A stretch of DNA of 64,000 nt from contig JBLDXI010000042.1 of NCBI GenBank assembly GCA_047495785.1, positions 1,612,001 to 1,676,000 of the forward strand, in the 5' to 3' direction. The DNA comes from Lepidodermella squamata (lineage: Eukaryota; Animalia; Gastrotricha). Positions 10,056 to 42,580 of the stretch are shown here, piece by piece. The position numbers and the translations under genes were made by a program. The notes under the pieces are model-generated. The model did no database searches. It saw only the letters and a program-made list of their open reading frames with translations, and was not told where the DNA came from. Within the stretch, counting starts at the first letter, position 1; every line of letters begins with the position of its first letter.

Positions 10056-10136
10056 TAGGCTTTAAAGTGCATAAAAAGTTCACATGGTAAATAAAATGAT
10101 TAAATGTTTCCCTAGTAGCTCAAAATTAAGCTTGAA

Positions 10137-10210: not shown

Positions 10211-10228
10211 TCTCGAAAGCTGATTTCC

Positions 10229-13761: not shown

Positions 13762-13930
13762 AGGCTAGGATTGCCATCGAGAAACCTTCACATGAATGAG
13801 ACGCTCTACCACTGAGCTATTGCCCCCTTTCCCACCTCGAGGTCTAGGCAAGAAAACCTTGGCGGCGACGGGGGAACATTGGTCAGAGTGGATGCAGAGT
13901 TCATAGTGATAACCGCTACACCATGGGACG
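13762..13930 (-). pseudogene. Decayed tRNA-Ala and tRNA-Gln copies (second tRNA cluster)
   Basis: GAATGAGACGCTCTACCACTGAGCTAT and TAACCGCTACACCAT match the 9984-10210 cluster in the same order. Confidence 0.7.
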
Positions 13931-14167: not shown

Positions 14168-14194
14168 TATACTTACTTTCAAGGCAAACACGTG

Positions 14195-14266
14195 TGCGTC
14201 AGCCAGGAGTCGAACCCGGATCGGCTGCTTTGAAGGCGACCATGCTAACTGTTGCATCACTGACGC
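14195..14266 (-). tRNA. tRNA-Gly body with TCA anticodon (opal-suppressor-like or pseudogene)
   Basis: GCGTCAG TG ATGC AACAGTTA GCAT G GTCGC CTTCAAA GCAGC CGAT CCGGG TTCGACT CCTGG CTGACGC A. Confidence 0.65.
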
Positions 14267-17200
14267 CTGCTGAAGTTAATGACAGTTCTGCGGTGGCTAA
14301 AACTGGCATAATCAAGATCCAAAAAAGCCAAACCGACGCGCAGATACCGCATCACACTTCCAGCCAGAGCCCCAAATTTTTACACTATCGAAAGGGCTGC
14401 TGAAATGCCAGGTTGCTTCCAAAAACGGTGTACATGTCTGGTTCCGTGGCGATGAAAACACATTCATTGGCACCAGTGTGCGAAAGACCGAGGTTACAGT
14501 GCGAACTGTACCTGTAACCCCGCCTGGAGAGACCTGGAGTGGTCAGTGGCAAGATAACCCAGAAAAACTACAGGGTCAGATGGAATTCGGAGCCGAAACT
14601 ACCCACACCTCGTTTATCATACTTCTTCTACTGATTGGCAACCATTTGGCAACTGGTCTCCAGTAGGCCGATCTGATGAGGTGGAAGCAGTTCAGTAGGT
14701 CCTCAACGCCATCGTCCACAGGTTATGTTAACTCGTTTATCATTAATAATTTTATTAGAATTTATTAGAGTGATAGAATGAGGCTAGGCCATGGCTACCT
14801 GCTTCAAATCAACTCGCCCGCATTCCGACAGGTTAAGCTCGTGTTCCAATAGATTCTTAGTTCGATGGAAACTTGTAGATCCGATAAAGTAGGATGTGGG
14901 TGGCAAAAATCGAAAATGTTCAAATTATCCAAGTTTATTCTAATTTGCAATTGGCTTTCCTACCAGCAATAATATGAGGCTCAATTGCATTTGACCTAAA
15001 TATCTAAAAAATGGCGTTAAAATCGAGGGAAATTTTGTGCGTCGACCAGATTGACCACTTTGTAGACCAACCGCGCGCGCACTTGTAGACCAATATGCGC
15101 GCGCGTCGACCAAAATGAGTGCGCGTGTAGACCAAAATTAGGGCGCGTGTAGACCAAGTAAATACAAGCCGTAAATAGGAGCCAACTATTTATTTTCGCA
15201 ATTTTTGCAACGACAATCGGTAAATTTTTGATTAACAACGATGCAAGGGCATTTTCGACCCTTGCCAACTCGATTAACACAATTTTTGAAGGCTACGACG
15301 AGTTGAAAAACAACTGGCTACCTGTTTTCTCGGGGTCATGCGAGGAAGCCCAGGCTTTCCTTGGTAATAGGGACCCATTTTTTTGGCAACGAGGCGGCGA
15401 GTAGAGAAGAGGTTGTTACGTTGAACCTATATGGTTGTGCTACGGGAGGGCGTCGGCGTAAAAATGTTTTCTCGGCTTGGATGCTAGATCATTTTTTTCT
15501 AAATTATGCGAATAGTTTAATAGAAGATAGCGGCCCGGCGGTCGACGCATCTTTCAATTCCGATCACTTGAAATTAGTCCTATAATAATATCGCAAATTG
15601 CTGATTTCTTAAAAAATCCTAGGATAAGTTGTAGCTGTTGATTTCATACGGGCGCCGCCGTTCACAAAGTCGAAGGAAAAAAGATCCCATGGGTCGAGCA
15701 TTGTTCCTCTATATCACCGCGTAATAGTGAGCGTAACATGCTTGAGTTTATTTTCGCCGGGCGTGAAGAAATTTTCTCTAAGTCAGAATATCAGAATTTC
15801 GGGAGATGGCGCAAAATTGTGACTGCGCATAAGTCCGCTATTCTGCTACCGCCGACAGTTTCCGCTGGTTGCGATGCGCGTCGTGAAATGTGCGCAAAAT
15901 ATGCGACTTTCCGTTTATAAATCTCTGATTTCGTTCACATATTTATTCTCATTATTTAATTACCCAACTTATGATGCAATTAAATTAAATTATGTCATTA
16001 AAAACTCAATCGTTGAAAATTATTTAATATCCTTTCAAAAACTTGATGTAATTAATAATATTAATCGATATAATGAATGAAAAAATTGCATCAAAAAACG
16101 AAATGAATTTTTACGAAAAAAAATAAAAATTAGATAAAAATTATCCGATCATATTTTTAGAAAATATTTTTATTTTTTTTACATTTTTGCGATATATGAA
16201 AAGTATTCGGCTAAAAAACTAAAAAACGGATTTTTGTTCTTTTTTTGCGGTAGTTTCGACACTTTCCATTTTAATTTAAATTTCCCGATGTTATGTTGAC
16301 TGATGAACAGCGTCGATTTTCAGAGCCTGAGATTTCAGTCGGCGGCCGTTACCAATTTTCAAAATTTGTTCAGCAACATTATACGGGTTTCATATACTTG
16401 CTGTATTTTTCTTGTCCAAAAATGCTCCTGCGTGAAGATATCATTTAGTGATCAAATAATATTTTACTTCGGTACGAATTATTCACAGCAATTTTATCGA
16501 GTTATCAAGAGATTTATCAACATCCTGTTATATTTTTTCCAGGTTCAAATATCAACAGAAAAATTGCACCGCAGTGGAGTGGCACGAATTTCATTACAAA
16601 TAGAGAACTTTCAGGAAATTATTGGTTTTGTGTTTTTAAACGCTGTCATCTTTGCCGCGGACTCGAATTGGTTCATGCCAGCAGCATGAGTAGCAGAAAG
16701 TCGCTGGTTTTGATTTTCGTTCAATTTTTCAGATGGCCGAGGCGACAGCTGACTGTCTGAAAAAAATTACTGAAAAAAATTGGATGGAATTTTTTGGCAG
16801 AGGATAATTCTTACGGATTGGCGATGGAATGATCCGAATGACAGCGATGAGCCAAAAATCCTAAGAATGATCCCATCCCTGCGAGATCGAAATAAATCGC
16901 CCTAATATTTGCTTTCGGCAGTAATTTCCTGCCATCAGCCGAGGGTGTTCTATGCTGATTTCTTCGCCGGAGATGGGCGATCAATTTGGTGCCTGGCTGG
17001 CGAAATTTACACGAATGTTCTCATTAATTGTTTGCGTGAATGACTTTGTGAAATTTTTTCCTTACGCATTATTCAGAGCTGTTATTCTGCGCGAGACAGG
17101 CGAAAAAACGTAGAATGAATTAATAAAATGTGCAATCTTTGCGGTGGAAAATTATTATCAGAAGCCTGTGAAAACAAGGCTTAAGTTGTCTTTAATTTTT

Positions 17201-20067: not shown

Positions 20068-20842
20068 TAATCAACTAAATTACTATCTGTTTTTCGCCTG
20101 GTTGTCATTACTGCTTTTTTATCCGAATCTTAAATAAGGATCATCCTAAATTATTCCAGTCTCGCAAAAGTTGAGGGAAAAATTACATGAATTGTCTGCC
20201 AATTTAAAAAAAACTCGACATTAATACTTGCGATTCACAACAGTACAAACTGTATACGAGGTCGAAATATCAGTAATCAATTAATTCCCCTAATAATATC
20301 AAATAAAGCCGAATAACTCGCAAGGGAAATTAAAATTTTAAAATTTGAAATTAAAAAAATCACGCCTATATACAAGATTGCATTTGCGCTGCGAAAATTT
20401 TTCAATTTCATGACGCTTTCTTTCATTAGTTGTATATTTTAATGAAACACGTGGTATCATAAAACTATGGTACATAAGTAACTGATTGTTTGTGGCCCTA
20501 GATAGCACTTGAATATCTTGAAAATCGGATTGCTGTTTCTTTATAACGCCTTTATAATAACTAAATGTCAAACAAAAATTCTCGCCAAAAGAAGGAAGAA
20601 TTCGCCAACACTCGTCTACCTCAGATCACATCTCAAGGCCGAATGATAGCTTTTAAGCTAGAGTATAACCATCAGCTGACTTTTGGACCGGTAAATATAT
20701 TTTCAAAGGGCTATTTTGCGATATTTATTTATATCAAATGGGGGGAAAAGGGGAAAGGCTATTCAATTTTGACAAGATTATTTATTCGCTATTAAGATTG
20801 TATTCATTTTTCCTTAACATATTATTATGTCAAAAATTATAG

Positions 20843-21241
20843 GAATGCGATGTGTATAATTTCGATTGCGAAGACGCGCCAACTGTTCCCACGAAAGTTG
20901 TCCAGCACGAGCATGTGGCGGAGCTGACCGAGGCTCACAAGGATCGCCTGCACAAGCAGGTGCGTTGCATCCCCTGCTATGACCGGCTAAGGCTCGATCT
21001 TGGCTTCTCTGCAGAGGAGGCGGGCAAAAAATGTCGCAAGGCGACGAAGCGGTGCGTCACTTGTCCCGGAAGGCCGGGCATTTGCCGCCAATGCTGGCCG
21101 TACATCGAAAATCACGGCGGGGTGAGTGGGCCAGCGGAACCGGGGCCAGCGGAGTCAGGAGAACCAGTCCAACCAGTGGACAAGATGGAAGAAGATCGCG
21201 GAATTTCCTTGGAGCGACTTTTTGCCTTATGCGACGATTAA
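20843..21241 (+). CDS. Terminal exon encoding a piggyBac-type C-terminal cysteine-rich domain
   Basis: AG acceptor at 20841-20842; H..RCIPCY..KATKRCVTCPGRPGICRQCW..H pattern; no upstream DDD core recognised. Confidence 0.6.
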   Translation, partial: ECDVYNFDCEDAPTVPTKVVQHEHVAELTEAHKDRLHKQVRCIPCYDRLRLDLGFSAEEAGKKCRKATKRCVTCPGRPGICRQCWPYIENHGGVSGPAEPGPAESGEPVQPVDKMEEDRGISLERLFALCDD

Positions 21242-26290: not shown

Positions 26291-26885
26291 AACTGCCTAA
26301 ATACGGAAAAATAAATGAAAATTAGTCAAGTAGTTAATTTCTTTGATTATTATGATTAAAAAAGTGAACCATGTAAATTACGTAAAAACCTACACAGAAA
26401 AATTATTCTGTTTTTAATTTGGACTGTTCTCAGAAAAACACAAAAATAAAAAAATAGCATATCCGAAAATAAAAAAAATTAAGAAAAAAAGAGAAAAAAT
26501 GCTAGGGATGGTATACTATATTTTTTTACGTATTTCGATGAGAAAAACTAGTGATATTGAAATTATGATTTTTACCGCCTCGCTCCCGTCGACATTTAAA
26601 TTTTAAGCGGACAACAGGAAGGGCTGTGATCGCACATAAACAAATTTCCAATAAAAATTTTTTTATATATTAATCATTGACAGTATTATCCTCATCAGCT
26701 CAATAAAACCAACCTTGGCATTATCTTTTTCGCGATGTTATCGGGCAAAAAATCGGGGGTAGTGCTGCGTCTGTCAACATCTACGTCACATGGAAAGCGT
26801 AGCCAATTTTTTTCGCATGAAAATGGTTATTGAGGAAGCGCAAGGGCCAAAAAATCGAGCTTCGTAGAAACCCGAAACTCGAACT

Positions 26886-26961
26886 ACCCTAACCCTATCC
26901 TTATTCCTGAATCCTAACCAAACCTTAAACCTAACCCTAACCCCTAACCCCAATTCCTAAT
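26886..26961. repeat. Degenerate interstitial (CCCTAA)n telomere-like tract
   Basis: CCCTAACCCTATCC...AAACCTAACCCTAACCCCTAACCCC. Confidence 0.7.
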
Positions 26962-27902
26962 CACAGTATGGCTAAAAATCACGATTTCATGAGAAAAAAA
27001 TATGTATAAAGGTTATTTTTCCATTAAAAATGAAATTCGTAATTTTTAATCGACCAAATCATCAAAAAACTATGATTATGCAGTCATTTTTCGAAATTAA
27101 CAGAAGTTCCTATAGAGCCATGTTATTTGGGAAATTTTTGAGTTGGATTTTATTAGGCTCGCACCTTAGGGTGGCAAATCAAATCCTTTTCTTTAAAACA
27201 CATCGCCACATCCAGAACTTTGCAATTCACATTTGAAATGAAAAAACTCTGCATCAATTCTTCCAAAATATAATCGCCTAAAAAATCATTTAAATCCGAA
27301 CCCACTTTTTGTATGAGGTACGCTTTTTAATCTCAGATGTAGGGCTCTATACTGAGCTCTATATCTAAATCCTATTAAATAACCCTAATTTATTCCTATA
27401 TGTTCTGAAGCGATAGAACCGGGGCGATAAAATAATTTGTTCGAAAACAACGATTAGACAATAAAAAACTATTATTACTATACTTTATACGACTACTTGT
27501 ATTATAGCCTTGAGCAAAATCTGGAAAACTGGTGAAAAGTTTCTGATGAGTTTCTTGGCAGAAACGAAACGCAATCTCAGCGCAGCCCGAAAACCGACTC
27601 ATTTCGAAAGATTAAATATTGAAAATCCAATCGCTAAAATTAAGAAAAAATCTGTCAATAATTTAGTGCTTTTTATCGACCAAAATTTTTTTCAAAATTA
27701 ATCCTCCTTAATAAGCTGTTCTGAGATTGCGTCAAACTTGCCATCACCAAGTTTTGCAGCTAAAATGACTATATTTTTGTTAGCCAATGCGCAAATGCCG
27801 TTTTCCTAAAAATGACCATAAATAAGTGGCGTTGAGCAAGCATAGTTTACTAAAATTGCAGTGCGCATCATTTAATGACAGAATTAAGAGAATAGCGTAG
27901 CC

Positions 27903-28188
27903 CAGAGTTGTCCACGGGTCGAAAAATTGAGGCCCGACCGAGCCCGTCACGAAATTAGTATTCCTTCTTCCTTTTCGATGCTCAAAAACTTCAAAGAGAC
28001 GTCATTTTTACTCGAAGTTGGCATTATATTGATGTTTTGCTACGGGAATAACTTAAAATCTTACTGTCAAATTTACTGAAAGCAATTGCAAAGAAATCCT
28101 AGAAGACGGGTTTTGAAAACCAGAGGATTGGAAAACCCGTACCCGCCCAAACCCGGCCCGGGTTAAACCCGGCCCGTGGACATCTCTG
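27903..28188. mobile_element. hAT-family MITE
   Basis: TIR CAGAGTTGTCCACGGG / CCCGTGGACATCTCTG; 8-bp TSD GCGTAGCC (27895-27902, 28189-28196); subterminal ACCCG/GCCCG repeats. Confidence 0.88.
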
Positions 28189-28782
28189 GCGTAGCCAACC
28201 CTTTTAACGATGGGCAGAACGAACTAAAATCAAAAGCCAGTGTAAAAGCCACTAATGAGGATAGTCGGATCGTTTTTAGTTGGATTGGAATGCGACATGA
28301 ATATTTTAAATGCGAAATAGGAGCATATCGAAGAGTTGAAAGAATCACGTGTCCGCTAATGACCTAATTAAGGGATGCGCATTATTAGATCATTTGCAAC
28401 CACCCTGAAAACCGAATTTTTTTTGTATTCGCACTCTGAATTTTGCTGAAATTTCGATTATTGAAAATAAAGAAAAATCTACTTAAAAATCTAAGAAGTG
28501 AATAAAGTCGAAAAAGCCTATCCGTCACGAAGTCGTTTTTTCTCCCGATAATTTTGGTACTCGCGTAATATTGCTTATTATTGAAAAAAATATTCCTTGC
28601 CCTTGGAAGCGAATGAAATCTTAAACCATTAAAATCTTTGAAAATGGGCTGAATTTCGATAAATAATAATTCTTAACTCATCAAGGCTTGATTACCTCAT
28701 TATTCTCCAGATTCTTCAGCCTTTCAGCATTTACTATCTCTGCATCGCACAATTTGCTTAGAATTGATTAATTTCGTACCTA

Positions 28783-31700
28783 ATGGCTCAAAAGCGGCCT
28801 CTTGGTGCTGAATCGGGCTTGGAATCGAGCTCGGAAGAGCCAATAGCTGAGTCCCGTTTCCCTCTCGGTAGAATCCCCAAGGTGGCGAGGAGCACATCAG
28901 GGGCCCAGCTCAACTACTTTTCAGTGAAGCCAAGTAATCCACCCAGGAAGAATCCGATCGACCGTAACAAGCCAGGTTGCAGTGGAACAGCGCCGCCAGG
29001 AACTTCGGCTGAAGTTTCGCCACCTAGGGCCAACAATGCGAAGACGTCAAGGCGACCGGTCTCGCCAGTTGCTTCTTTAACAGAGCCAGACTTGCCGCGT
29101 GATATGGCTCGATCAAACGCCCTGCAGAGATCTTTCCTGGAAGAAGAAGAAACGACATCATTTGATGACAACGTAATTTTTTGAACTAATTCATTTAAGC
29201 ATAAAAAATATTTACTTCACAAATATTTCTAAATTTCATGATTTTTAATGAAACGGTTTTCCCCTTGAAATATTTCATCTATCATTAAACGCCGCAATAC
29301 AGTAAAATCTGAATTTTCATCCAAGGTGGGAGAATGCAATTCTTCATTTTTCCAAAAAAATATGCGAGTTTTGCTATTTACACTCCAGTTTTCGCAATTT
29401 ATAACGCATTTGGCCAACTTTCGTCGCAAATTTATCCGATCTGAAATTATAAAATTTCACAACGGAACTTGACGTGGATTTCAAATTAGGGATTTTTCAA
29501 TTTTTTCGGCTTCCCTAAATCCTCCAGGGAACACCACTTTGCCCTTTTCAAATGGTGAGTATCCGTGGTCTAAAATATCTCAATTATCCGAATCGAAGCT
29601 GATTTTACAAATTTTAAGAACGTAATTTCCTCCATAGTTACTACGCGTGATGGTACTTCATGAAAATAAATCTGCATTACCCAGCCAGATTTTTCAGGAT
29701 TTTCGAAGAAGAGACGAGATTAGAATTGGAATGAATTTAAGGGTCCGACAGCGGGCGTAGCCAAAATTTTGATTACAACTTATTCCCCATAGTTAATTAG
29801 AAAACGTGACGATAATTCGCAATGCGTTTGAAATCGTTATTGTTGCATCTAATAACTTATCATGGGCACAGTATTTCAAACGCCATTAGTCGCCTTTAGT
29901 CACATGACAGAAACAGTTGAATATATCTGATCCTAATAATGTAGAAATTAGGCAAAGTTTTCAGAGCGAATTTATCGATTTTTTTCATCATGAGCAACCT
30001 CGAAGACGACGATCGCTATTCAACGGGAGATTCTGAATATGACAGCGACGAGTCCATGAGATTAAGGGCGAAAGCCAAGCGAAAAGCTGAAGAGTATGCC
30101 TTTTATCGCCGTTTGTCATGGCACAACTATAAACGCGAGAATCCTACATTAAGTAGCCACTTTGTTCCTAACAAACTGGGTATGAATTAGCTGAATAGCA
30201 GCGCTCCAAGTAAGAATTTTCACCTTATGCACTTTTCTTGCAGAAAGAAGCGCTTCGTGCATTGAGTTTATAGCCGATCGAACCGGAGACTGGAATATGA
30301 CGTGGTATATGCTTACTGAGCTAGGGAATATACCTGCGAACCGACGATATTCAGTCAATTTGGGAAAACACGAATTCAACTTCGGAGGTTCTTTTCGAAG
30401 AAAGGACTTCAATTGAGCTTAAGTGCTGAACCTATCTCATTTTGCCCTCAATATTTTGATCAACAGCTAATTCACCTTATTTAATTTCATGCTTTGATGC
30501 CATTCAAGAGGTTTCAGAAATAAATTAATTCGCCTCCGTGTAATATCGTTAGCCATGGTACAGCAAGTATTATGGCACGCTTGTAAATAGTTCAATAAAA
30601 TTTCGAATAAGTCTTTTTTGCAACCATGAATTTTCCGTCTGACTTTTTTCTGTGTGATCCGTATGTCATGTTAGCAATTCGAGTCGAAAAAACACAACTA
30701 GCGTGAGTGGGGATATTTTGGAAAAAACCCATGTTTTTAGAATTTTAAAATGAATTTGAATTTGTTTTTTTTCGTCCTCCTTAAGGCATGAAATGTGATG
30801 ATAAAGATTCGAGGATTAAAAATCAGTCTTAAATTAGAAATCGATGATTTTAGGTTTGAGTAAGGTAATTTCAGATTGACCTGTAATGTTTGTGAATTTT
30901 ACGTGATTTTTGGCGATTGCAAAAACAATTAAGAAAAGTTGTACAATTAGCGGGTGATTTTTTGCTTAATAAAAACCATAAAAAATCAGCGCGCAAGTTT
31001 TTACTCGGGTATCAAGTACCCTGAAAGCCTCCAATTTAGCTTGAAATTAAAAATTTAAGCTTGTAATTTATCACGACCACGATGATACGCGATGAAGCTT
31101 CTACAGCGTGTCCACAAGTTACGCAACTATTTTTTACTTGGAATCTTTTCTACAAAATTAAACTCATTTTATTAAATTAAACCAACTGAGAGAATATTCA
31201 ATTTTTTATACGCGATTTAACCGAAAAAATCAAAAATTTACCAAAGAAAACCCGGAAACCCCCGATGGTAACTGGTTCGGAAATTTTCGGTATTTTACCC
31301 GTTTGGAAATAATATCTCCGGACTTTTTTAATCCCATTAACAACTGAAATAATTCATTGAAGTTCTCCTAATTTTTTCAAATTTTCTATACATTTTTTGG
31401 TCAAACTGTGTGACTTCATCTATCATTACAGAGTTTCTGAACCCTTAGCCGTGTACTTTCTTTGCATGCGTTACTTATGGGACACGCTGTAATTACTAAC
31501 AAATGAAATTCGATGAATGTCAAATTGTGGATAAAAGTATTATAAGGCCAGTTTTGCTTTTAATCTTGTTTTGAACACCCTATACCCCAACTCGAAATTA
31601 TTTACAGTGTAAAATTAAAAAAATAGTAATTACGAGGTTTGAGAGCACTAAGTAAGACACATTTAGACTCGCCGAGCAAAAATAATGCGATTTCCTGAGT

Positions 31701-34700
31701 AAGATGTCATTTTTAATTAAAATTTAACAAATATCAACGAATTTTGTGAATTTGAAATTTCTCCAGCAATTTTCTTATAAATCCTCCAATCTTTTCAGGC
31801 GACTTCTTTCAACATATTTGCAAGTCCAAAACAGGTAAAATTGGGTCGACCTGCTACCAAGCGGTACCAGGAACTCGAACCGTCTGCTCGCTGCATGAGG
31901 CGGAAGCGTCGCCTAGAAGATGGTTTGCAGTTCACCACAGACGATTTTGCCAACCGAGTTATGTGTTACCACGACAAAGCTCCGGTAGTAGGAGCCTCAG
32001 TAGAATTGTGGTTTCCTGGTCCCCAAGGAACCTACGACAAGGTGGCAAGGCGCTATGGCGCAGCTGCAGAGGAAGAAGACCCCGTGGAGGCAGCCAGAAA
32101 GTTCGACAAATTATAATTATAATTCCGATATTTTATGTCTATCCTTGTAGGCTCATACGTCTTTCAACCTCTCATGTCATGAGTGGAAGGGCGACAGAAA
32201 AAATAGCAAGCGCCCATAAAGTGGTACGCCGAGCAGTGTTGCGAGAAGAAAAATCAAGGCAAAGCAACATGTTCGATTTAACGACGAAAAAATCACCGCT
32301 ACTTACTGCCGAGGTAAATTATGAAAATAGGATATTCAACTCAATACATTAATTTCGATCAATAACACTACGATTTTGCGCGAATTTTTCCGGAACAAAA
32401 TAATTCCGAAGATTATTCTATACCGAAATTAATTCTATAAAATTCTTTCTATAAATTTATTTTCCCTTGAGAAAAGGTAATACGATAAATCAAGAAGGTT
32501 GGGCGATCTCTTCTCATTTTCCTGAAAAAAAACAATTTTAAATGGCTAAAATTTGTGAAGTTAAAAAAGCGGTAGGAACTCCACAGCCCATTTCAGCTAC
32601 GGCTAGATCCTCAAATTTCCACCATTGAAAATCTCACATATTTTGAATGTCATAAACGATAATTTCGGCAAAATCATAGCGACTAGTGGACTTACATTTT
32701 CAGCAAATTCTCTGATTTCAGGATGAAGAGGATAACGGCGATTGTGGTATCGAGGGTGAGTCGGTAGAAAGCGCTTTGAGAAATGAGTCGTATGAACTGC
32801 GGCGAAACGATGAGGGAAGCGAGGCTGAAGAAATTGATGTGAAGACTGAGCGTAAGAAAGGCGGCTGCTCTCGAGATGTACGACAGATGTTGTCAACATT
32901 AATCACTGTTCACGAATTAAAGCCAGAGCATCCAGTCAAAATTCGACTTGCTCTAGACGGTACGCCTGGCCGAACAGAAGGCACGCAAGAAATGGTTCGA
33001 TTCACCATCTGCCTGCTGGATAAGAAAAATCGGCCAGATCTTGCATCCGAGCATGCGATAGCGACGTTCTTCGACACAGAATGTCACGCATCAATTGCCC
33101 ATTATTTCTCGGAAGCGTTCTCGCAGGTTCGACTCTCCATTATGATTATTTAAAATAATCCTAAAATATGCGAAAAATATATTATAGAGGAAGGTCTTCA
33201 ATTCAAGGCGTGCTTTTTCCTGTGTTTTAAACATGAAAATGCGCAACTATTCATTAATTTTGCGAAAAAAAATTGAAATGGAATCAAACGTAGTATAACC
33301 AAATAATTCTGAAATTAAATAGTAAAATAATAGCTTTGTCATCAACAATCAACAAACAAAAATCAACAAATCTTCCTGGGGGAATGGTATCATTTAACGA
33401 TATTTTCAATTATACGAAATCATGAATTTTGCGAATTTTTAAAATCCACGGGAAAACTTGAAATTAAAATAAATTAATAGAACGAAAAATCGGAATAAAT
33501 AAAACTAAGTAAATAAAAAAAATGCCCATCTGCAATACGGCAATATCTGCAGCATCTCGCCGGATAAAATACCCATCGTCATCACCCATCACTATAAAAC
33601 TAAACCAATAAAACTAAACCTCCATACAATATAAGGCAAACTCTATTCTGAATTCCCTTTGTTTAACATCGTGTCCCATAAGTAAGTGATAAAAAAACAG
33701 AGAAATACGATTATGCTAGCTAAAATGAGTGCCGAATTATTTTCACGAGGCCATAATAATCTTTCGAAAAATTAAAAATGACAAGAGAATGCATACTGAG
33801 ATTTAAACCCATGGAAATTTGGTTCAGCCTGGTAAAATACAGCCGATTACAGTAGGTTACATCAGGGTTTTACGTGATTTTCCCGATAAATTTCTACTTT
33901 TTCGCTAAAGCCGTGCGTAATGAAAATGGAAAATTATCCCGGCAGGATTATTTTCAAATAATTATTAGAATTTTCTGCAAATAATTGCAAACTTAAAATT
34001 TTTTGCCAATTTATGCCCAATTTTTGCCCAAATTAAGCGTGTTAAAAGTCAACTAATACAGGTCCCAAAAAAGTATTACTAATTTTTGAAAAATTAATAA
34101 ATTCACGTGTTTCAGATAAATCATCTGCAAGACCATGGACATGATTTTGGCGGCAACCACTACGACATCGAGGCCTACTGGAGTGCCGATGTTATGGCTG
34201 TCATTAAAGTCTTTGGAGCCGGTAGTACAAATGGCGATCATTTTTGCCCTCTTTGTACGCAGCGAAGAAGCTCTAAAAATGACGAAGACGTTAGTGACCG
34301 CCTATTCCATCGACTGGCCGTCATGGATCAAATCATGCAGAATCCCGAATGCAACCGTAAAGGGCAAAAATATATGCCTCTTCTACGGATCCGCCCTGAT
34401 CACATCCTGCCCGATCCTCTGCATATGCTCGCTCGTCTCACTGAGACTTTGATTAAATTGGTTCGCAAATAATAAATTTTAGTGAATTTCTCATGTATAA
34501 TAAATATATGAAATTTAAGACGCTTCAGCGGCTACTCGAACTCGGCCTGACTACGGATGCTGATCGCATCAAGAATGGGCTTGAGAGAAGGGGTGGCGGT
34601 CGGCTGAAAATTGACTACACCGAGAAATCGGCGAGCCAGAAGAAGGCTTTCAAGGTCACAGTCAAGGTGACGGGCCACACCATCGCTACGAAGGCCTTCA

Positions 34701-35400
34701 GCGAATTCGATTTTAAATTGGCCGATATATCTGTCGATGACAGCTCAGCCAGGCGCCAACTTCTGGAGAAGCGAACTGTGGCGACTTTAAAGTCGATGAT
34801 CGCCGAAGCCCAAAGCAGTCACGCCGTACTGAGCCGAAAAAGGGCCAAAAAATCAGACTATGTGGAGGCTGCCATGGACTTGGGTCTGCGCTGCAATGAG
34901 GATGACAGCTCCGCCGATGACGCTGAAAACGCCCAAGTGGTTCTGAAATCCCTTGACAATGTCATCGCCCTTGGAAAATTACTTTTCAAAGCGGTGACTA
35001 ATCAAGTGAAGACATTGCCACCTGCCAGCGAATTTCGACGCTTTGAAGCGATGCTCTTCGATATGCGGAAGAAGCATACTATTTACTCTCATAGTAAGTA
35101 TCACCCGCTATTTCTTACGATTAAGTAATTTATTTCTTTGCAGTGATGGGTTCCCACGTGCACAGCCATCTGGCTGCTGGCCTTGACCTGGTCGCATTGG
35201 GCACTTCTATTGAGCGCGGCCATCGCGTACTCAAGCGCGTCCGCGATGCAATGTCGACGCAGCAAACCGGTGTGGTTACTGCGATCGACGTAATGAAATA
35301 CGAGAATAGGCGCCTATGCGCATTTATCTATGAAAAAAAGTTTAATATTATTGTCCACGAAAGCGCCGCATCTAGAATAATTGAACTGCAAAAACGCTGA
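28783..35400 (+). CDS. Transib/RAG1/Chapaev-type DDE transposase, 7 exons, ~808 aa, apparently intact
   Basis: Exons 28783-29172, 31799-32100, 32151-32313, 32722-33126, 34116-34460, 34529-35093, 35144-35400 splice in frame at GT-AG sites. Motifs: GRPATKRYQEL..RRKRRL, KIRLALDG, WSADVM, FCPLC, PDPLHML, YSHMMGSHV, SIERGH. Linkage of exon 1 is the least certain part. Confidence 0.75.
31104..31489. mobile_element. Tc1/mariner-type MITE in the transposase intron
   Basis: TA|CAGCGTGTCC-ACAAGTTACGCA ... TGCGTTACTTATGGGACACGCTG|TA. Confidence 0.8.
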
Positions 35401-36559
35401 TTTAATCTTCTAGTTAGTCCTGAATTCGTAGCTCTAGTCATAACTGAAAGTGTAATGTTGTAAATAAATAGATTTAAATGATTTTCGGCTGAAATTCGAT
35501 GTGATCACAGTTGTGTTATTGAACTATGTAGCAAATGTTAGATGACGCGCTCGATTAATATCATTTTTTTCATCTAATATTTTCTGCAACTCCTTCTCAT
35601 CAATTATGGCGGAAATCCAGAAACTAATGTAGTCAATCGTGTCGCATTTCAATTGACAATGCCTCCATGACTTCGTGTCTTACTAAGATGGCGTGAAATA
35701 TTGAAACTCGGTCTGATTGTAGATATACTCTTTATATAAACCTATCAATCTTGTAGCATATCAACTTTGAAGCATATCAACTTGTGAATAGTGATAATTT
35801 GATATCACTTCAAAAAATAAATTAACGCAGACCGGAATCACTCGTCTTCTGATAAACTTCGATGGTAAATTCTCATCATGATTAACCCCACTTGAGTTGA
35901 TGATACCAATTGATTAATTCGAAACGAATACAGTTATAGCAACTGGACTAGATATAGACAAACATTTCAATCAAAATCAACTCACTTAAATACTTATCGA
36001 CTCACGACATGGTGGCAACCTGTTGCTTATCTTCATCATTTATGTCCGCAGTCAATCGCTCAATTCTTCAATCCTCCGCCGTATTATTGAAAGAGGTGAC
36101 GATGTTAACTCAGCAGCAGCATTCACACAGCAAATTCGATCCGAATACCAGCAGAAGTAACGCCAAGATCATTTTCAAGTCAAAGCTTTCACTCAAACTG
36201 AGCAAGAGTTATCTGAGTAGGACATCTTCTAACTCAGAAAGTCGAAATTAAGCAAAACTGTTAACGCCGACACCTAGTTAACACAAGTAAAAGACATTTC
36301 ATTTCATCATTTCACCACCGATATGGGCAGGAACTTCAAAATGTCCTTTCAAAGTGTTATGGAAACTTTAAACAGCCAAATGCCAGCTAAAACTTGCGTG
36401 CAGTCACGCAGCTCGCAAATCTCCCGCCACGGGTGAAGGATTTAATTATAAGAAAATAATTTTTTTCCAACGAATAAATTTTTTTTATAACAAATCAAAT
36501 TATTTTCCAAGAGCTAATTTTATTTTGTTTTGATTTACCGCAGCCACTATTAGTGATTT

Positions 36560-37320
36560 GAGCGAAAATTAATATGTGAACGGCGGCGCCCGTATGTTGT
36601 TGTTGCAGATGTAGGTAGCGCGTTCATGGCGACCCAGTTCAATGACCGGACACGGTCCGTAGCTCTTATTCACGCAGCTAGTAGCTAAACCGGCGTGTAA
36701 ACACTCCAATACAGATAATCCCTTGATCCGTCGGCTGTAAAACACGGCAAACTGTCTCAGACGTCGCGCGGGGGTGCGTGTCGAGGTGCGCAGCGGGTGC
36801 GTGCGTGTGCGCGTGTTGTTTGAAGATTGGATAAAATGGGTGGATTGCGCGTGATTGGTGCAATAAATGCGTTGCGAATCAGCTGCTTAACTTGATCATC
36901 AAGTGCGGACACTGCTGTTGATTTCGCTGGGTGTCGGCGAGCAATCGAGTTAGTGAAAGCGACAACGGCTGACGGTGTTTCGACTGTTTTCAACTGGTTG
37001 CGGCACACGCTTCTGCCCGCACAATCGCAACAGTAGTAGGCTTCTGTCATGCCATTTTGCATTCTCGGTGCTGAGATTTTGCTGGTGTGATTATTTGCCT
37101 TCAGGAAATCAGTGGCCTCGACGGAATTTCCCCGGAAAACTTCAACCCAATGGTGTGGGGTTTGTTTATAGGCCAACTCGTCCGCCTCGACTATCTGCTT
37201 GATGATTACCACTAAACAATCAGCCACCTCATCAACTTGATTTTCTATAGCCTCGGCGGTAAAAGGCTCCTCGGTCGATTTTTCACCTGAAAGCTCTTCG
37301 CCTGACAGCTCAAAGGATAA
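36560..37320 (-). pseudogene. Decayed Mutator-like transposase N-terminus
   Basis: W..VF....EA.DFL......EAYYCCDC..RSVCRNQL..H..LDDQVKQLI resembles the WRKY/GCM1-like zinc domain of animal MULE transposases; stops follow from 36757 downward; reads inward from the right terminus. Confidence 0.5.
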
Positions 37321-37697
37321 TTGAAGGTTTAAAATCGTCAAAGGCATCGAAATTAGCCAAAATTTGCCGAAATACACGTTGGTCTACAATTAAATTTTTG
37401 AATGGTCTACAATTTAACAGTTTGGTCGACAAGTGTGCGTGCTGGTCTACAGCTGTCGCGTTTGGTCTGCGCGCGCACCCTTTTGGTCTACGCACCACCT
37501 TGAGTGGTCTACAATTGTGCGTAATCTGGTCTACAAATTTTTCAACCCCGTTAAAATCAGGTCAAACAATCAAAGCTATTTGTGAATTGACCTCTTCTTT
37601 TTATGCCTAGCTCTTTACTATGGCACGCGATAGGTTTTGCTTATAAAACGTGAACATTTTCTTTTATGATTATTATTTCTATAAATTTTCCCCAAAA

Positions 37698-40600
37698 ATG
37701 AGGTCGATTCTTGCTTTCGCTTTATTGATCAATTTCGCTGTAATTTCGCATGGAATAGTGAGTAGCAACTTCCAATTCAATTATTTTTAGTATAAACATT
37801 TGTAATTTTTTCCGTAGACTCCAGAGCATGAAAATGTTCTCCGGCAATTGAGTGACGCGATGCGTGCAAATCGGGGCCTTTCACCAGTAATTTCCATAGA
37901 AATATCGTCATCAGTTTGTGTTACAAATTATTGCTATAGGCCAATCGTAGCATCCCGCTAAAGCTATGCGGCATTCCAGATCTCGAAACCGCGCAAGCAA
38001 AACTGAGGCGACAACTGGCGATCGCAGATGGTGAGCCATTTGTGGCCGGATTGAGATTGGATTCGAATTTATGGACGTTCCCCATTCGATACAGATTCGA
38101 CGAGTCTACGCCATATGGTTGGTTGATATATTTATGAATTTTGTTTTAAATTCCGAGGCAGCAAAATTCATCATATCGTCATAATTTTCACGTTAATCCA
38201 GTCCTGAATAATATAATAATTTGAATAAAAATTATTTATTTGTTTATTTTAATTTTTTAATTATTTAAATTAATAATTTTTTTTTTAATATTTAAGAATA
38301 ATGTTTTCAATACAGAGGTCGGTCAAAAAGCAATCATCCGTGCAGGTATGGATCGTTGGGAAGACGTTACATGTGCCCGATTTGTTGAAAATCAAACTTT
38401 ACCTAAGACTTAAAATGGTCTGAAAATCTTTAAAGGAATAGGGTGAGTCAGTTTTGTTAAATGATAGGTATATTTTATATTATTCGAATTTTATTTTCTA
38501 AGATGCTGGTCATACATTGGTCGGCTGCGAGATGGAAAGCGACAAGACTTGTCTCTAGAGAACGGCTGCATGGGGGTATCTAGCATTTTTTGAAAAGCTC
38601 AAAGATTGAACGCGATCCTCATACAGGTATTCATTGCAGCTCACGAAATCGGCCACGCACTGGGAATGGTTGAGTTTTCGTCATACATATTGAAATCCTC
38701 AGTCTTCATGTGCGTCTCTATTAGGATCACGAACAATCGAGAACCGATCGCGACAACTACATCAGAATTATATACGAGAATGTTGTAGAGTAAGTTATTT
38801 TGATAGTAATAGAAAGCTCGAAACATAATTTGCTTTCAGAGGCGAGGAATACAATTTCGACACCGAACTGTCCGATGAAAATTTCAATGTCCCATATACG
38901 TACGATTCTGTCATGCAATACGGCTGGAACGCTTTCGGGAAAGGATGGAACTTTCGAACTATTGTGCCGTACGATAAACGATTCATGTACACCATGATGC
39001 AGCAGAATTACATCGCTTTTGGCGACGCGAAACGAATCAATATACGTTATCAATGCGGTAAGCCAAAATCTTGTTAGACGCTAGATGCGATGATATTTTG
39101 GGATTAGGGAAAACATATCGTAATCGTCGAAAGGCCACCTTTTACTTGTAGGATTTAATATGATCTTGTCTGCAAGTCAAGAATCTCAAAAATCAATCAT
39201 TTCAATTCGATTCAATTGTTCAAAATATCCCTGTTAAATCAATCAACTCAAATCAAATGTTCGCAAATTTGGGTACCAGGCTATAATTTCCGGCTTTCTG
39301 CCATTTTGAGGTTGAGTTTTGTCGGAATTTTTTTTCTGTTTTCAGTGGAAACGTCATGCGATGGCAAGCCGCTGCCACAGCCTTGTCAGAATGCAGGCTA
39401 TCAGAACCCGAACAACTGCTCCAAGTGCCTATGCCCGGAGGGTCTAGGTGGCGATTTCTGCGAGACCTATGCTCCGTACAAAGGTCCAGTTCCATGCGGA
39501 GGTTACGTCGATGTAAAAGCTTGCAGCTACACTTCGATCACCTCACCTGGTTACCCGAATGCCTTCGACGAGAATACGGCTTGCAATTGGTGGATTCGAG
39601 CGGTAAATTCTAACCATTTTTTTCAAATCAGAACTTGAAAGATTGGCGTTACAGCCGGCTGCTTCTGGACTAGTTTTCGCCTTCGGAAAAACTCCCGATC
39701 TTCCTAGCGAATATCTATGTAACACCCTGAAACTAGTTACCTGAAGTATTGATCTTTTCCGATTATATTCAGATTACACGAGTTGCGGAGATTATGTTTC
39801 AATTAAAGATTTCAGCAGTATTGAAAAATCAGCAATGAGGTTCAAAATATTATTGCCTGAAAATATTGATTGATTCATGTATTTTCTCAGGTTTTGCACT
39901 GACAGCATTTCAAATGGCCGAGTGTACTCAACTGATGACAATCAAGCAATAGTCACATTCGGAACACAGGGCATCCCTAGCCCTAGCACCGGGTTCAATT
40001 TGACTGTCTACGCCACGTGCCCGGGCACGAAAGCAACCTTGCTTAGCAAGGAGTGTCGAATTACCGATACTGGTCGCGACTACGAAGGCCTGAACGTTAC
40101 TACGTCGTCCAGGGGTAGAGCATGCTTGAAATGGTCCGACAGGGCAACTGTGTACGATTTGGGACTGCCAATGGGTGATGTTGCCGCGTCGGCAAATGCC
40201 TGCCGTGCCTACTTCACCAATGATGATGACCCTGTATGCTTCGTCAGCAAAAACGTTTATGGCACTTGTCCTCTAGTTGATAAGTGCCCAACGAGTAAGT
40301 AATTAAAAAGGGCCGATACATAATTAAGGCGGACTTTTTTTTATTTGAACATTAGCTTTTTGTCCTATTCCGTGTCAAAACGGGGGAACCTGTGTTGGCG
40401 TGGAAATTTGCAGCTGCCAAGCTGGTTGGACCGGTTCAACCTGCTCAACTCGTAAGTTTCCATAAAGTTCCAATTATTTAACTAACACTTTTCTTATTGC
40501 AACAGGAATCCCACCAAAATATGAAAGATGCTTTCTGAAGAGTACTGGCGATTTATCTATATGCCGATTGGCACCTCCGCTGTCACTTGGCTGTCATGAA

Positions 40601-41685
40601 TTTGAGTACCCGGTAAACATAGCAAATTCATATAAATACCAGGGTTATTACCTAATTCAAATTTTAAGGGCGGTCGGACTTTTCCAAGCTACCAATCTTG
40701 CGAGAGAGGCGTAAGTGAATGAAACTTTCTTAAAATTCGATCATGCTCTGTTGAGGTAATAGCCCGTGAGCTACTGCTTTTCACCTGCAACTACCGACTT
40801 CAGTTGTCGCTTTGGTGAATGCAATATCGACGAGAAACGGGTATAATCGATATTTCATACTTGAACACTTAGAATATTCCGAGTAATTTAAGGTCAAAAT
40901 CTTCTCCAGCTCCCGATTTTACGCCGGTGAGAATTTAATGGAATGTCGTAATCTGGCTACACCGGTAACACGATTTCCCTTTTAATTTGATCTCCACAAG
41001 CTTTTCGTTCCCTCCAGATGGAATATTATCGTTGGTCCAGTTCGAACTTCACGAAAATCTCCTGCCGACCAACAAGGGGCTTCAAGCCTGGAGAGGTTTG
41101 TTTGAATTCGATCATAAATGTCCTTGATCAAAAATCCCTTCGCAGGTTTTAAACAGCATTTATCCAGATCGGGCGAGTTGCCTCGCCAGTATGCAATGAT
41201 ATAAATTTTCCAGATCCGAATGACTTATTTTCTTCAGACACAACTGCCGAGCAGCCTGTCGTACGTTGCTACAAGAATTCGGACAAAAACTTCGAAACAT
41301 GCCGACCCGTTTGCCAAAATGATGAGTTCCAGGTAAAACACGTGTCTCTAATTTGTCGAAAATACTTGAGATTTGATTATGATTCCAGAATGGCCCGACG
41401 TATTACTTCAAAAATCTGGCTGTTTGCCTCAAAGGGGTTGAGACTTTCGCGCTAATTGATTTCAATTGCTAATGTTTTTCTAATTTTTAAGGGTGCTAGG
41501 CTATGTAAACGTAATCTCCAGCAGAATTATTGCACAGGAACGAACAGATTCTGCAAGAAACAGGTATTCTTTAATGGGCAATCTAATTTCTGAAGTTAGT
41601 CTTTTTTCTGGAATAGATACGAATTTTCGGCGCTTCGGACCTTTTCGCCGACAATCTGGCAGCGTGCAAAGCAGCTAACAAATGA
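37698..41685 (+). pseudogene. Astacin copy 3 with a nonsense codon in the protease domain
   Basis: MRSILAFALLINFAV signal peptide; HEIGHALGM|[10 protein letters not shown]; SVMQY; in-frame TAA at 38411-38413 where copy 2 has CAC. Confidence 0.8.
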
Positions 41686-42580
41686 ACCTAATATACCATT
41701 AACTATTAACTAGAACAGATAGAACTGTTTAATTGTGATTAATGACTTATTAATGATTGCGATCCAAGCTTATTAGCTGATCAATAAACTGCCCTATAGA
41801 ATTTGGGCACATTTCCACATCCACGGATATTCGCATTTGGCCTTTGAGATTCAGGAAACGGTGTGTGGTGAGCTCTGACCGTTATTTTTGTATGAAACAC
41901 AATTATTCGAGCGAGCACTGATCGCCAGAGTGCAGGATGAGCGTCCATCGTATGAAATAAATTTAGGCCGAATATTGGAACTTTGTTTCAGACTTCGGCA
42001 CCGTTTGGCGAATACGGCAATCCGATGTTGTCCTGAATCGAAATTATACCGAAGCTATTTTAGAAAGCTGTTAAGCCTACTTGAACTCGAGACACTTGCG
42101 GAATTGGGTGTTAACAAAATGTTCTCGAACTGATGAGAATTTATCTAGTAATAACTTGACCAAAACAACCCACGATTCAACCGAATTTGTCAATTGATGC
42201 AACCAATAAGTCTTCCGCCTGTATCGGTCATTTTAGTTTGATGTTTGATGAAATCAATTATAAAATGGAGCTTAATATCTCAAAATGCCCTCACTATTGT
42301 TGGTAACACAATCGGTCCGTTTAAGAATTGCCGCCACAGATTGGTCCGGTGTGGACATTTCCACTGTCAAAGAAGAATTTGAGGAGAATATTCGATTCTG
42401 GCAGTACATGTGTCCAACTTAATCGAGTATTAGCGGAAACAACCATAACGGACTTGCTCTGTATAGTCGGACACGCTATTTATAGCCTCACCAGGTTGCT
42501 GACAGGCACACGATTTGCTCCTCTTTTTCTCTGCGCGATCGCTTTTATTTCATTCATTTTATTTTATTCTATTTGAACAA

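What the first reader, a model, noticed from the sequence alone, without database searches (positions are those of the whole stretch)
28783..35400. Intact, intron-containing Transib/RAG1-like recombinase gene inside a foreign giant element
Seven exons splice into ~808 codons without a stop. Motif order parallels the RAG1 core: GRP+basic helix (cf. the GRPR nonamer-binding region), ..LALDG (cf. D600), ..SADV (cf. D708), CPLC, D.LH, YSHMMGSHV (cf. YFHKTLAHV), SIERGH (cf. E962). MITEs sit in or beside its introns while the coding frame stays clean, which suggests selection. No convincing own TIR/TSD pair and no RAG2-like partner were seen. It could be an active CMC/Transib-group transposase, a domesticated gene, or cargo of the surrounding element.
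Basis: partly seen in the sequence, partly recalled or inferred. Interest (0 to 1): 0.78.

Follow-up and report, generated by a model that had tools for sequence, protein, structure and literature searches.

The report
Giant transposon with RAG1-like enzyme
A 21-kb stretch bounded by a perfect pair of inverted ends holds an unbroken seven-exon reading frame for an enzyme predicted to fold like RAG1, the protein that rearranges our antibody genes, so it is likely the cutting enzyme of a large jumping gene from a little-described side branch of the RAG1/Transib group rather than a gene tamed by the host.

Summary
The seven-exon model is real in sequence: 811 (or 808) codons, no stop, all introns GT-AG. 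Exons 4-5 match a Pfam-less protein family (molluscs, a soft coral, a hemichordate, a glomeromycete fungus) whose profile and predicted fold hit RAG1/RAG1L first; D364, D445, C464/C467, D520/H523, H726/H731 and E750 line up, although exons 1-3 and 6-7 have no significant profile match. This 20,952-bp element sits inside an older 1.6-kb Mutator/Foldback-like relic with its own 10-bp target duplication. A metagenome relative also has CATATG-type inverted ends. Best reading: a low-copy giant cut-and-paste transposon of the CMCT (CACTA-Mirage-Chapaev-Transib) clade, not a canonical Transib (no CAC end, no 5-bp duplication), not RAGL (no RAG2-like gene seen), not Chapaev (no Chapa finger). Splicing, activity and copy number are untested; no genome or RNA data were available.

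The parts
15015..15024 (.). Left copy of a 10-bp direct repeat (CGTTAAAATC), target duplication of the outer relic element
   Evidence: Exact copy at 37549-37558, abutting the outer inverted-repeat arrays; random 20x20-nt window pairs share a 10-mer at a rate of 0.0003
15025..15644 (-). Left part of the outer Mutator/Foldback-like relic: terminal array of about 21-bp GTAGACCA repeats (6 copies, 15040-15155), then a decayed coding stretch with stops
   Evidence: End-to-end local alignment score 107 against 26+-5 (max 49) in 200 shuffles; no Pfam hit
15643..15644 (.). TT, apparent 2-bp target duplication of the inner element (left copy)
   Evidence: Sequence; a 2-bp match alone is weak evidence
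15645..15666 (+). Left terminal inverted repeat of the inner 20,952-bp element, CATACGGGCGCCGCCGTTCACA
   Evidence: Longest perfect inverted repeat in the window (22; next 17; at most 18 in 30 shuffles); only 2 matches to its first 15 nt with up to 3 mismatches
20565..21241 (+). Predicted two-exon gene (20565-20690, 20843-21241), 174 aa, Cys-rich C-terminal half; passenger or accessory gene, function unknown
   Evidence: Spliced frame open; strongest coding score in the element outside the transposase; no Pfam hit above cut-off
27903..28188 (.). MITE with an 8-bp target duplication (GCGTAGCC), hAT-type by TSD length (recalled)
28783..29172 (+). Exon 1 (aa 1-130), low-complexity Ser/Pro-rich; its link to exon 2 across a 2.6-kb intron is the least certain junction
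   Evidence: no family match
29990..30416 (+). Small predicted two-exon gene nested in intron 1 (29990-30179, 30244-30416), 120 aa, function unknown
   Evidence: Spliced frame open; no Pfam hit
31104..31489 (.). MITE in intron 1 with a TA duplication, Tc1/mariner-type by TSD (recalled); very many X1 contigs lie on it
   Evidence: summed depth 33,460 in bin 31060-31415
31799..32100 (+). Exon 2 (aa 131-230), GRP plus basic helix, candidate end-binding region
   Evidence: the likeness to RAG1 GRPR is recalled, not scored (negative)
32151..32313 (+). Exon 3 (aa 231-285)
32722..33126 (+). Exon 4 (aa 286-420), RNase H strands with first catalytic Asp D364 (32956-32958)
   Evidence: Family HMM E 3.3e-5; hhalign E 0.00054, probability 30%
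34116..34460 (+). Exon 5 (aa 421-535): second Asp D445 (34188-34190), C464/C467, D520/H523
   Evidence: 33 hits at E<=0.001; its model aligns to RAG1 676-808 and BbRAG1L at Z 3.3-4.1, the only 5 of 48,161 chains with Z>=2
34520..35093 (+). Exon 6 (aa 536-726; alternative acceptor 34529), helical zinc-binding insertion domain by position, ends in Y724-x-H726
   Evidence: positional alignment only; no profile match
35144..35400 (+). Exon 7 (aa 727-811): H731 and the third catalytic residue E750 (35212-35214), then stop
   Evidence: Pattern test 38 of 100,000 shuffles; HMM score not significant
36575..36596 (-). Right terminal inverted repeat of the inner element
   Evidence: an X1 contig ends at 36593, 3 nt inside this end
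36597..36598 (.). TT, apparent 2-bp target duplication (right copy)
36597..37548 (-). Right part of the outer relic: ORF 36757-37383 with a Cys/His motif weakly like GCM/FLYWCH domains, and a terminal repeat array (7 copies, 37380-37535)
   Evidence: ESM Atlas leads only (0.88 to a cluster with 12% GCM, 0.83 to one with 14% FLYWCH); no Pfam or homolog hit
37549..37558 (.). Right copy of the 10-bp target duplication of the outer relic

Best explanation
The gene likely encodes the transposase of the 20,952-bp element that surrounds it (15645-36596), a low-copy giant cut-and-paste DNA transposon of the CMCT clade whose enzyme is predicted to have the RAG1/Transib fold. Shown: the open spliced frame, the perfect 22-bp CA..TG inverted ends, TT on both flanks, homology of exons 4-5 to a family whose profile and model match RAG1, and the nesting inside an older element with a 10-bp duplication. 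Inferred by analogy with RAG1 and HzTransib (recalled mechanism): a transposase dimer, without a RAG2-like partner, would bind the 22-bp ends through its basic N-terminal helix, use D364/D445/E750 and two metal ions to nick at the ends and hairpin the flanks, and join the ends to a target with a 2-nt stagger, leaving the TT duplication. C464/C467 with H726/H731 would form the zinc site. The element once jumped into the coding region of a Mutator/Foldback-like element in a gap of an astacin-like protease gene array. It has since taken up MITEs, and it carries two small passenger genes. Whether it still moves is not shown.
For: Family link: 33 hits; spliced model E 6e-37 over residues 330-543, exon 4 alone E 3.3e-5; the model hits 7 of 8 metagenome-locus ORFs by BLASTP at E 7e-20 to 2e-11. 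RAG1 relation: the family profile hits BbRAG1L 6b40 at E 4.6e-7 and RAG1 at 5e-5; the model of relative P0004 (pLDDT 80) hits RAG1 at E 6e-15, BbRAG1L 1e-11, HzTransib 5e-10; the window's own exon-5 model returns only RAG1/RAG1L (5 of 48,161 chains at Z>=2; 7 of 8 Foldseek rows). Ends: longest perfect inverted repeat in 64 kb, above all 30 shuffles. CA..TG ends with a 2-5-bp TSD are the CMCT rule (PMC12730594, passages). Removing the element and one TT rejoins the outer relic so that its ORF frame runs 30 codons past the join, against 8 or 11 for the other offsets. Relative L004 has inverted ends starting CATATG(C/G)GC at 221 and 3937, first found by a scan blind to the window's TIR, and L007 has CATATGGGCG upstream of its ORF. 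X1 contigs end 3 nt inside both the inner right end and the outer right end.
Against: No second copy or empty site could be examined (no genome held). A 2-bp duplication matches by chance often, and L004's ends show none. Matches of at least 8/10 to the TIR start in the 8 loci number 4, no more than in shuffles (median 3); only their positions make them notable. No subterminal similarity beyond the 22 bp (score 22 against 22-23 in controls). Exons 1-3 and 6-7 have no significant profile match, so E750 is assigned by pattern and spacing. The H523-to-H726 span is 203 aa against 140-161 in 10 relatives. The exon-5 model was built with the family alignment, so its RAG1 match is partly circular, and its scores are low (Z<=4.1; Foldseek E 2.6-6.8). 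Nested MITEs show the copy is not brand new, which fits an immobile gene equally well. The P-element transposase is also hit by the family model (E 6e-5).
Confidence: 0.72

Rival explanations
1. The gene came in with the 21-kb transposon but is now immobile and kept by the host (domesticated nuclease or DNA-binding protein); the intact ends are leftovers.
For: Clean frame despite MITE insertions. On four X1 contigs (4 of 8 listed X1 pieces) covering 1,342 exonic and 1,072 intronic nt, the placed differences are intronic: Fisher p 0.0015 if the two unplaced differences are intronic, 0.15 if exonic. Summed X1 depth over the exons (120-190) is like that of the host flank (155-241), so there is no sign of many copies (the tool warns depth is no copy number). 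Organism B (run X2) holds pieces 87-98% alike on both the inner element and the outer relic, as an orthologous locus would.
Against: Both 22-bp ends are still identical and the apparent TSD is intact, which old immobile copies tend to lose. The X2 pieces are not clearly better conserved in exons (10/254 and 17/254 differences) than outside (6/382 to 24/185). One X1 change in exon 1 is non-synonymous (S79P). Purifying selection also acts on transposases that were recently active (established knowledge).
Confidence: 0.14
2. The mobile unit is the outer 22.5-kb Mutator/Foldback-like element with the 10-bp duplication; the RAG1-like gene is cargo in a Pack-MULE-like element and the inner inverted repeat is incidental.
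For: The outer ends and 10-bp TSD are statistically strong and resemble Tm1 Mutator/Foldback elements of root-knot nematodes, with composite TIRs and 8-10-bp TSDs (PMC3169594, passages).
Against: The inner perfect repeat exceeds all shuffles, has CMCT-type ends that suit this enzyme, and interrupts the outer element's own decayed reading frame. The outer TIRs are far more diverged than the inner ones, so the outer element looks older. Its transposase identity is unverified. The two readings are not exclusive: the composite could have moved once as a whole.
Confidence: 0.08
3. The seven-exon model is partly an artefact: a decaying transposase in which only exons 4-5 are homologous, and exons 1-3 or 6-7 belong to other or dead reading frames, so no complete enzyme is made.
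For: No significant profile support for exons 1-3, 6 and 7; intron 1 is 2.6 kb and holds another small predicted gene.
Against: All exons have coding-like composition, phases fit at all 6 junctions, the H-x4-H motif forms only across the exon 6/7 splice, and the full C-terminal pattern is rare in shuffles.
Confidence: 0.06

Closest known systems
RAG1 core and RAG1L of ProtoRAG/RAGL transposons (PDB 6cg0, 4wwx, 6b40)
   Same: Best profile and fold matches for the family and for the window's exon-5 model; same order of D, D, C2C, DxxH, YxHx4H, E.
   Different: About 14% structural identity for the relative; no RING/Chapa N-terminus (7 Cys/His in residues 1-330); no RAG2-like gene seen in the element; ends are CAT.., not CAC; apparent 2-bp TSD instead of 5 (PMC7204232, passages).
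Transib transposons (HzTransib, PDB 6pqn/6pqx; Kapitonov and Jurka 2005, PMC1131882)
   Same: Single-gene RAG1-fold DDE transposase between short TIRs; the family model hits HzTransib at E 5e-10.
   Different: Transibs are 3-4 kb with 5-bp TSDs and CAC ends, and D-to-E 206-214 aa. This element is 21 kb, has 6 introns, an apparent 2-bp TSD and D-to-E 305 aa. HzTransib is not among the 20 profile hits at E<=10. Caveat: bioRxiv 10.64898/2026.08.26.747230 (section 20) reports Transib relatives with 3-bp and TA duplications.
CMCT clade of Kojima 2025 (EnSpm/CACTA, Mirage, Chapaev, Transib, Plavaka, ESTA, Lanisha; PMC12730594)
   Same: [quoted passage not shown]
   Different: No named lineage matched: no Pfam hit for any exon at curated level; only sub-threshold DUF1280 (Chapaev; 3 of 30 relatives) and RAG1 (1 of 30) hits; ends differ from PlavakaB (CATCA), PlavakaA (TGT) and ESTA (TA TSD).
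Uncharacterised transposase-like family of Mytilus, Dendronephthya, Ptychodera and Diversispora (P0003, P0036, P0041, P0051)
   Same: 25-33% identity over exons 4-5; D1-D2 spacing 81 against 79-86; one metagenome member has CATATG-type inverted ends.
   Different: Relatives appear as single long ORFs, and L004 spans only 3.7 kb; several end in a SAP-like helix pair. The window's protein and P0001 (56% identical fragment) form a long branch (3.56 changes per column, quick tree).
Tm1 Mutator/Foldback elements of Meloidogyne (PMC3169594), for the outer relic only
   Same: Composite TIRs with internal repeats, 8-10-bp TSD, possible FLYWCH-type N-terminal domain.
   Different: The outer relic is decayed; its MULE domain is not detected by Pfam.

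Membership tests
CMCT clade | DDE triad in an RNase H/RAG1-type fold | tested here: met
   D364 and D445 by profile; fold through relative P0004 and the exon-5 model; E750 by pattern only
CMCT clade | [quoted passage not shown] | tested here: met
   C464/C467 and H726/H731
CMCT clade | 5'-CA..TG-3' termini | tested here: met
   22-bp perfect TIR starting CATAC
CMCT clade | 2-5-bp target site duplication | tested here: inconclusive
   TT/TT at a single insertion; could be chance
CMCT clade | Dispersed copies or an empty site | not testable with these tools
   No genome held; contig data cut and depth is no copy number
Transib (canonical) | TIR starts CAC with an RSS-like heptamer | tested here: not met
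   TIR starts CAT; no CAC-type pair with a 5-bp TSD around the gene
Transib (canonical) | 5-bp TSD | tested here: not met
   Flanks GATTT and TTGTT share only TT; exceptions are reported in bioRxiv 10.64898/2026.08.26.747230 section 20
Transib (canonical) | Second D to E spacing 206-214 aa | tested here: not met
   305 aa against PMC1131882 passage
Transib (canonical) | Groups with Transib transposases in a tree | not testable with these tools
   No Transib, RAG1 or Chapaev reference sequence could be fetched as a usable record; the tree has none
RAGL / ProtoRAG | Convergent RAG2-like kelch gene inside the element | tested here: inconclusive
   No coding stretch of that size in the coding-score scan and no kelch hit in the ORFs scanned; the whole element was not scanned against Pfam
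RAGL / ProtoRAG | N-terminal cysteine-rich and RING region | tested here: not met
   7 scattered Cys/His in residues 1-330; no Pfam hit for exons 1-3 at curated level
Chapaev / Chapaev3 | N-terminal Chapa zinc finger (PMC4411706) | tested here: not met
   a separate Cys-rich gene at 20565-21241 has no recognised domain
Chapaev / Chapaev3 | DUF1280 (PF06918) match | tested here: inconclusive
   None for the exons; sub-threshold in 3 of 30 relatives, E 0.0027-0.028
Mirage / EnSpm / Plavaka | DUF1258, Transposase_21 or Plavaka domain match | tested here: inconclusive
   No Pfam hit for the exons or 30 relatives; ESM Atlas rows at 0.96 (Plavaka in 11% of members) and 0.95 (Transposase_21 in 43%) are leads only
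Mutator/Foldback (outer relic) | Long repeat-built TIRs and 8-10-bp TSD | tested here: met
   PMC3169594 passages
Mutator/Foldback (outer relic) | MULE transposase domain | tested here: inconclusive
   No Pfam or homolog hit on the decayed pieces; the motif likeness is recalled

The most novel reading that the evidence does not exclude
This is an intact, still competent member of an unnamed lineage beside RAG1 and Transib, marked by CATAYGGGCG ends from animals to glomeromycete-like fungi. In this nematode-like genome it has grown into a 21-kb, intron-rich, cargo-carrying element whose RAG1-fold enzyme works without RAG2 and leaves a 2-bp instead of a 5-bp target duplication.
Probability: 0.35. 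Interest if true: 0.7.

Novelty: new variant of a known kind. Interest (0 to 1): 0.5.

Why it matters
The biochemistry of the RAG1 lineage rests on RAG, ProtoRAG and HzTransib, whose ends start CAC and whose target duplications are 5 bp. An apparently intact RAG1-fold enzyme with defined 22-bp ends of another sequence, an apparent 2-bp duplication and a 21-kb span would give a ready substrate for testing which parts of the fold set end recognition and target stagger, and how much cargo the fold can move. It would also give ends, and so a transposon identity, to a widespread family now annotated only as 'hypothetical protein'. It is not evidence for V(D)J-like recombination or domestication in this animal, and RAG1-like transposases of this clade are common in eukaryotes, which caps the surprise.

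Tried and rejected
No whole genome is held, so copy number and flank alignment were not possible. No RNA holder was listed among public runs; this says nothing on expression. Run X2 has no cover in the two bins right of 37468 but also none in 3 of the other 28 bins, so the gap was not used. X3 gave only 7 short matches. Word-indexed homolog searches found nothing for exon 5 among longer proteins or for the outer ORF. phmmer of exons 4 and 5 against PDB sequences gave no RAG1 hit. Pfam gave no curated-level hit for any exon. Metagenome scan with exon 5: 0 of 74 candidates confirmed; viral scan with A1: 0 of 16. A TIR+TSD scan ranked by TSD length showed only chance-level pairs in the 40 of 244 rows printed and hid the 2-bp pair; it surfaced in the self-BLAST. 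RSS-like heptamer/nonamer pairs: none near the gene. Subterminal similarity and an RSS-like spacer asymmetry between the two ends: at chance level, rejected. N-terminal and C-terminal sub-profiles were not significant. Inverted-repeat listings of 6 of 8 metagenome loci showed no obvious TIR; a CA..TG scan of all 8 found the L004 pair. dN/dS could not be computed because positions of X2 differences were not shown. The careful tree did not finish; the quick tree lacks RAG1, Transib and Chapaev references and left out P0046. A full-length fold of the spliced protein was not run. Literature: 9 searches listed no paper describing a giant RAG1-like element with these ends. Repbase, Dfam and subscription journals were not searchable, and the CMCT tree in the PMC12730594 supplement was shown cut, so the lineage may already be catalogued. 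Earlier-findings look-ups near the locus, by P0004 sequence and by the first word set returned nothing.
Full report
Setting. The window holds a tandem array of astacin-like protease genes with CUB and kringle pieces: repeat families with about 5.4-6.4-kb spacing and one 32.4-32.8-kb gap, a CUB hit at E 0.0002 and a weak kringle hit; the astacin label rests on a recalled motif. The finding lies in that gap. Polinton-like DNA polymerase B ORFs lie at 60.8-62.6 kb. Short introns and a mild excess of TTTTCAG (31 against 21 expected; 2 of 100 shuffles reach it) suit a nematode-like animal; the host is not identified. No whole genome is held.

Observation. The seven exons splice into 811 codons plus stop (808 with the acceptor at 34529), with no internal stop, GT-AG at all 6 introns, and exon GC 46-54% against 19-34% in introns. 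An 8-bp-TSD MITE lies upstream (27903-28188) and a TA-TSD MITE in intron 1 (31104-31489). Intron 1 also holds a small predicted two-exon gene.

What the protein is. No exon has a curated-level Pfam hit, and single exons do not hit RAG1 in PDB sequences. HMMER over 1.84 billion representatives with exon 5 gave 33 hits at E<=0.001, the best a 95-aa fragment at 56% identity, the rest 25-51%. Named relatives are uncharacterised proteins of Diversispora and of Mytilus, Dendronephthya and Ptychodera (108 hits). A profile of 23 relatives matches residues 330-543 of the spliced model at E 6e-37 and runs collinearly over the exon 4/5 junction; exon 4, which was not the query, scores E 3.3e-5 alone (hhalign E 0.00054). 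The family profile's best PDB hits are amphioxus RAG1L (E 4.6e-7) and RAG1 (5e-5); HzTransib is not among the 20 rows. The model of relative P0004 (pLDDT 80) matches RAG1 at E 6e-15, RAG1L 1e-11, HzTransib 5e-10 and P-element transposase 6e-5. The window's own exon 5, folded with the family alignment, returns RAG1 in 7 of 8 weak Foldseek rows (E 2.6-6.8) and RAG1/RAG1L as the only 5 of 48,161 chains at Z>=2 (Z 3.3-4.1, rmsd 3.4-4.3 over 106-110 residues, RAG1 676-808). These scores are low and partly circular. In a multiple alignment D364, D445, C464/C467, D520/H523, Y724/H726/H731 and E750 fall on the family's conserved columns. D1-D2 is 81 aa (79-86 in 10 relatives) and D2-E 305 aa (238-271). 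The C-terminal assignment rests on pattern, not score: the family pattern occurs in 38 of 100,000 shuffles, but the sub-profile gives 2.1 bits and hhalign nothing. Exons 1-3 match nothing; the GRP/GRPR likeness is recalled. In a quick tree of 29 rows the protein and P0001 sit on a long branch; no RAG1, Transib or Chapaev reference was in the tree.

The surrounding elements. Arrays of about 21-bp repeats face each other at 15040-15155 (6 copies) and 37380-37535 (7 copies). Their alignment scores 107 against 26+-5 in shuffles, and they are flanked by an exact 10-bp duplication at 15015-15024 and 37549-37558. This is the layout of Mutator/Foldback elements such as nematode Tm1 (PMC3169594, passages). 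Inside lies a perfect 22-bp inverted repeat, CATACGGGCGCCGCCGTTCACA, at 15645-15666 and 36575-36596. It is the longest perfect inverted repeat in the window (next 17; at most 18 in 30 shuffles) and has TT on both outer sides. CA..TG ends with 2-5-bp duplications and C(2)C/H(3-4)H motifs define the CMCT clade (PMC12730594, passages). Taking out these 20,952 bp and one TT leaves a 1.57-kb relic in which the frame of the ORF at 36757-37383 (with stops) runs 30 codons past the join, against 8 or 11 for other offsets. That ORF has only weak GCM/FLYWCH leads and no Pfam or homolog hit, so 'Mutator' for the outer relic rests on ends and TSD. Of 8 metagenome loci of the protein family, L004 has an inverted pair beginning CATATG(C/G)GC around its ORF, without a visible TSD, and L007 has CATATGGGCG upstream. 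The count of such matches is no higher than in shuffles; only their terminal position and orientation are notable. Subterminal similarity beyond 22 bp is at chance level. Besides the transposase, the inner element carries a 174-aa Cys-rich predicted gene (20565-21241) and the 120-aa nested gene; no RAG2-sized coding region appeared in a coding-score scan.

Public runs. X1 covers all 30 bins of 27500-38150. Summed depth over the exons is 120-190, like the host flank (155-241), against 33,460 on the intron-1 MITE; the tool warns that this is no copy number. X1 contigs end at 36593 and 37545, each 3 nt inside a proposed element end, as branch points at repeated ends would cause (inference). A contig joint from 32764 to 33100 hints at a second, internally deleted copy or allele. 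On 4 contigs the placed X1 differences are intronic (p 0.0015-0.15 depending on two unplaced ones); only 40 of 441 differences were shown. Organism B (X2) holds pieces 87-98% alike on both nested elements at depth 2-6.

Mechanism. Shown: frame, ends, nesting, core homology. Inferred from RAG1 and Transib (recalled): a dimer without RAG2 binds the 22-bp ends, nicks and hairpins with the DDE triad, and inserts with a 2-nt stagger. The order of events inferred from nesting is: outer element into the protease-array gap, inner element into the outer element's coding region, then MITEs. Confidence 0.72; domestication 0.14; cargo of the outer element 0.08; partial artefact 0.06.

Comparison and novelty. 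It works like Transib/RAG1 and meets the CMCT tests that could be run. It fails canonical Transib (CAC end, 5-bp TSD, D-E spacing 206-214; PMC1131882 and PMC7204232, passages), RAGL (no Cys-rich/RING N-terminus, no RAG2-like gene seen; PMC7204232 and PMC9435367, passages) and Chapaev (no Chapa finger; PMC4411706, passages). Weak DUF1280 hits in 3 of 30 relatives (DUF1280 = Chapaev, PMC3985635, passages) place the family in that neighbourhood. A 2026 preprint (10.64898/2026.08.26.747230; abstract, sections 20 and 25 read) warns that TSD length varies within Transib, so the ends alone do not exclude Transib in the wide sense. Also read as passages without bearing on the verdict: 10.1101/2021.09.26.461848, PMC5751038, PMC5718144. 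Nine literature searches listed no description of this lineage, but Repbase, Dfam and closed journals were out of reach and the CMCT supplement tree was cut. Earlier scan notes (unchecked) show RAG1-like elements of this clade in at least 14 other genomes, one of 22 kb, so the type is not rare. Verdict: new variant of a known kind, interest 0.5.

Noticed in passing
window 1-9400 and 37700-53300: Tandem array of at least 5 astacin-like protease genes with CUB and kringle pieces, copies 60-90% alike, split by a 28-kb gap. The kringle plus astacin pairing looks unusual (recalled).
   Followed up: partly
window 54594-62656: Polinton/Maverick-like region: protein-primed DNA polymerase B ORFs (PF03175, E 2.6e-13 and 2e-11), a PC4-like ORF (E 0.00016) and an acidic repeat-rich ORF on the minus strand.
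   Followed up: partly
window 10850-11900 (minus): C-type lectin domain gene (PF00059, E 3.3e-11) in the gap, outside both elements.
   Followed up: no
window 9984-10311, 13770-13830, 14194-14266: Cluster of tRNA and tRNA-like copies on the minus strand, some decayed; possibly tRNA-derived repeats. The block 10229-10478 resembles 14195-14394.
   Followed up: no
window 20565-21241 and 21182-21596: Cys-rich two-exon gene inside the element whose 3' end forms the left arm of a 57-nt inverted repeat (probable MITE); the Cys pattern recalls piggyBac C-terminal fingers (recalled, not tested).
   Followed up: partly
window 29990-30416: 120-aa predicted two-exon gene nested on the same strand in intron 1 of the transposase; no Pfam hit.
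   Followed up: partly
window 13309-13680, 19300-19969, 43212-43396: Further inverted-repeat elements (MITE-like), not classified.
   Followed up: no
window 26880-26955: Short degenerate (TAACCC)n telomere-like run inside the inner element.
   Followed up: no
window 33666-33700: Lone copy of the intron-1 MITE end in intron 4, inverted relative to 31456-31490.
   Followed up: no
L004:221-3937 and L007:112: A 3.7-kb TIR-bounded element with a 616-codon open frame about 54% identical to the Diversispora protein; a compact member of the same transposase family with CATATG-type ends.
   Followed up: partly
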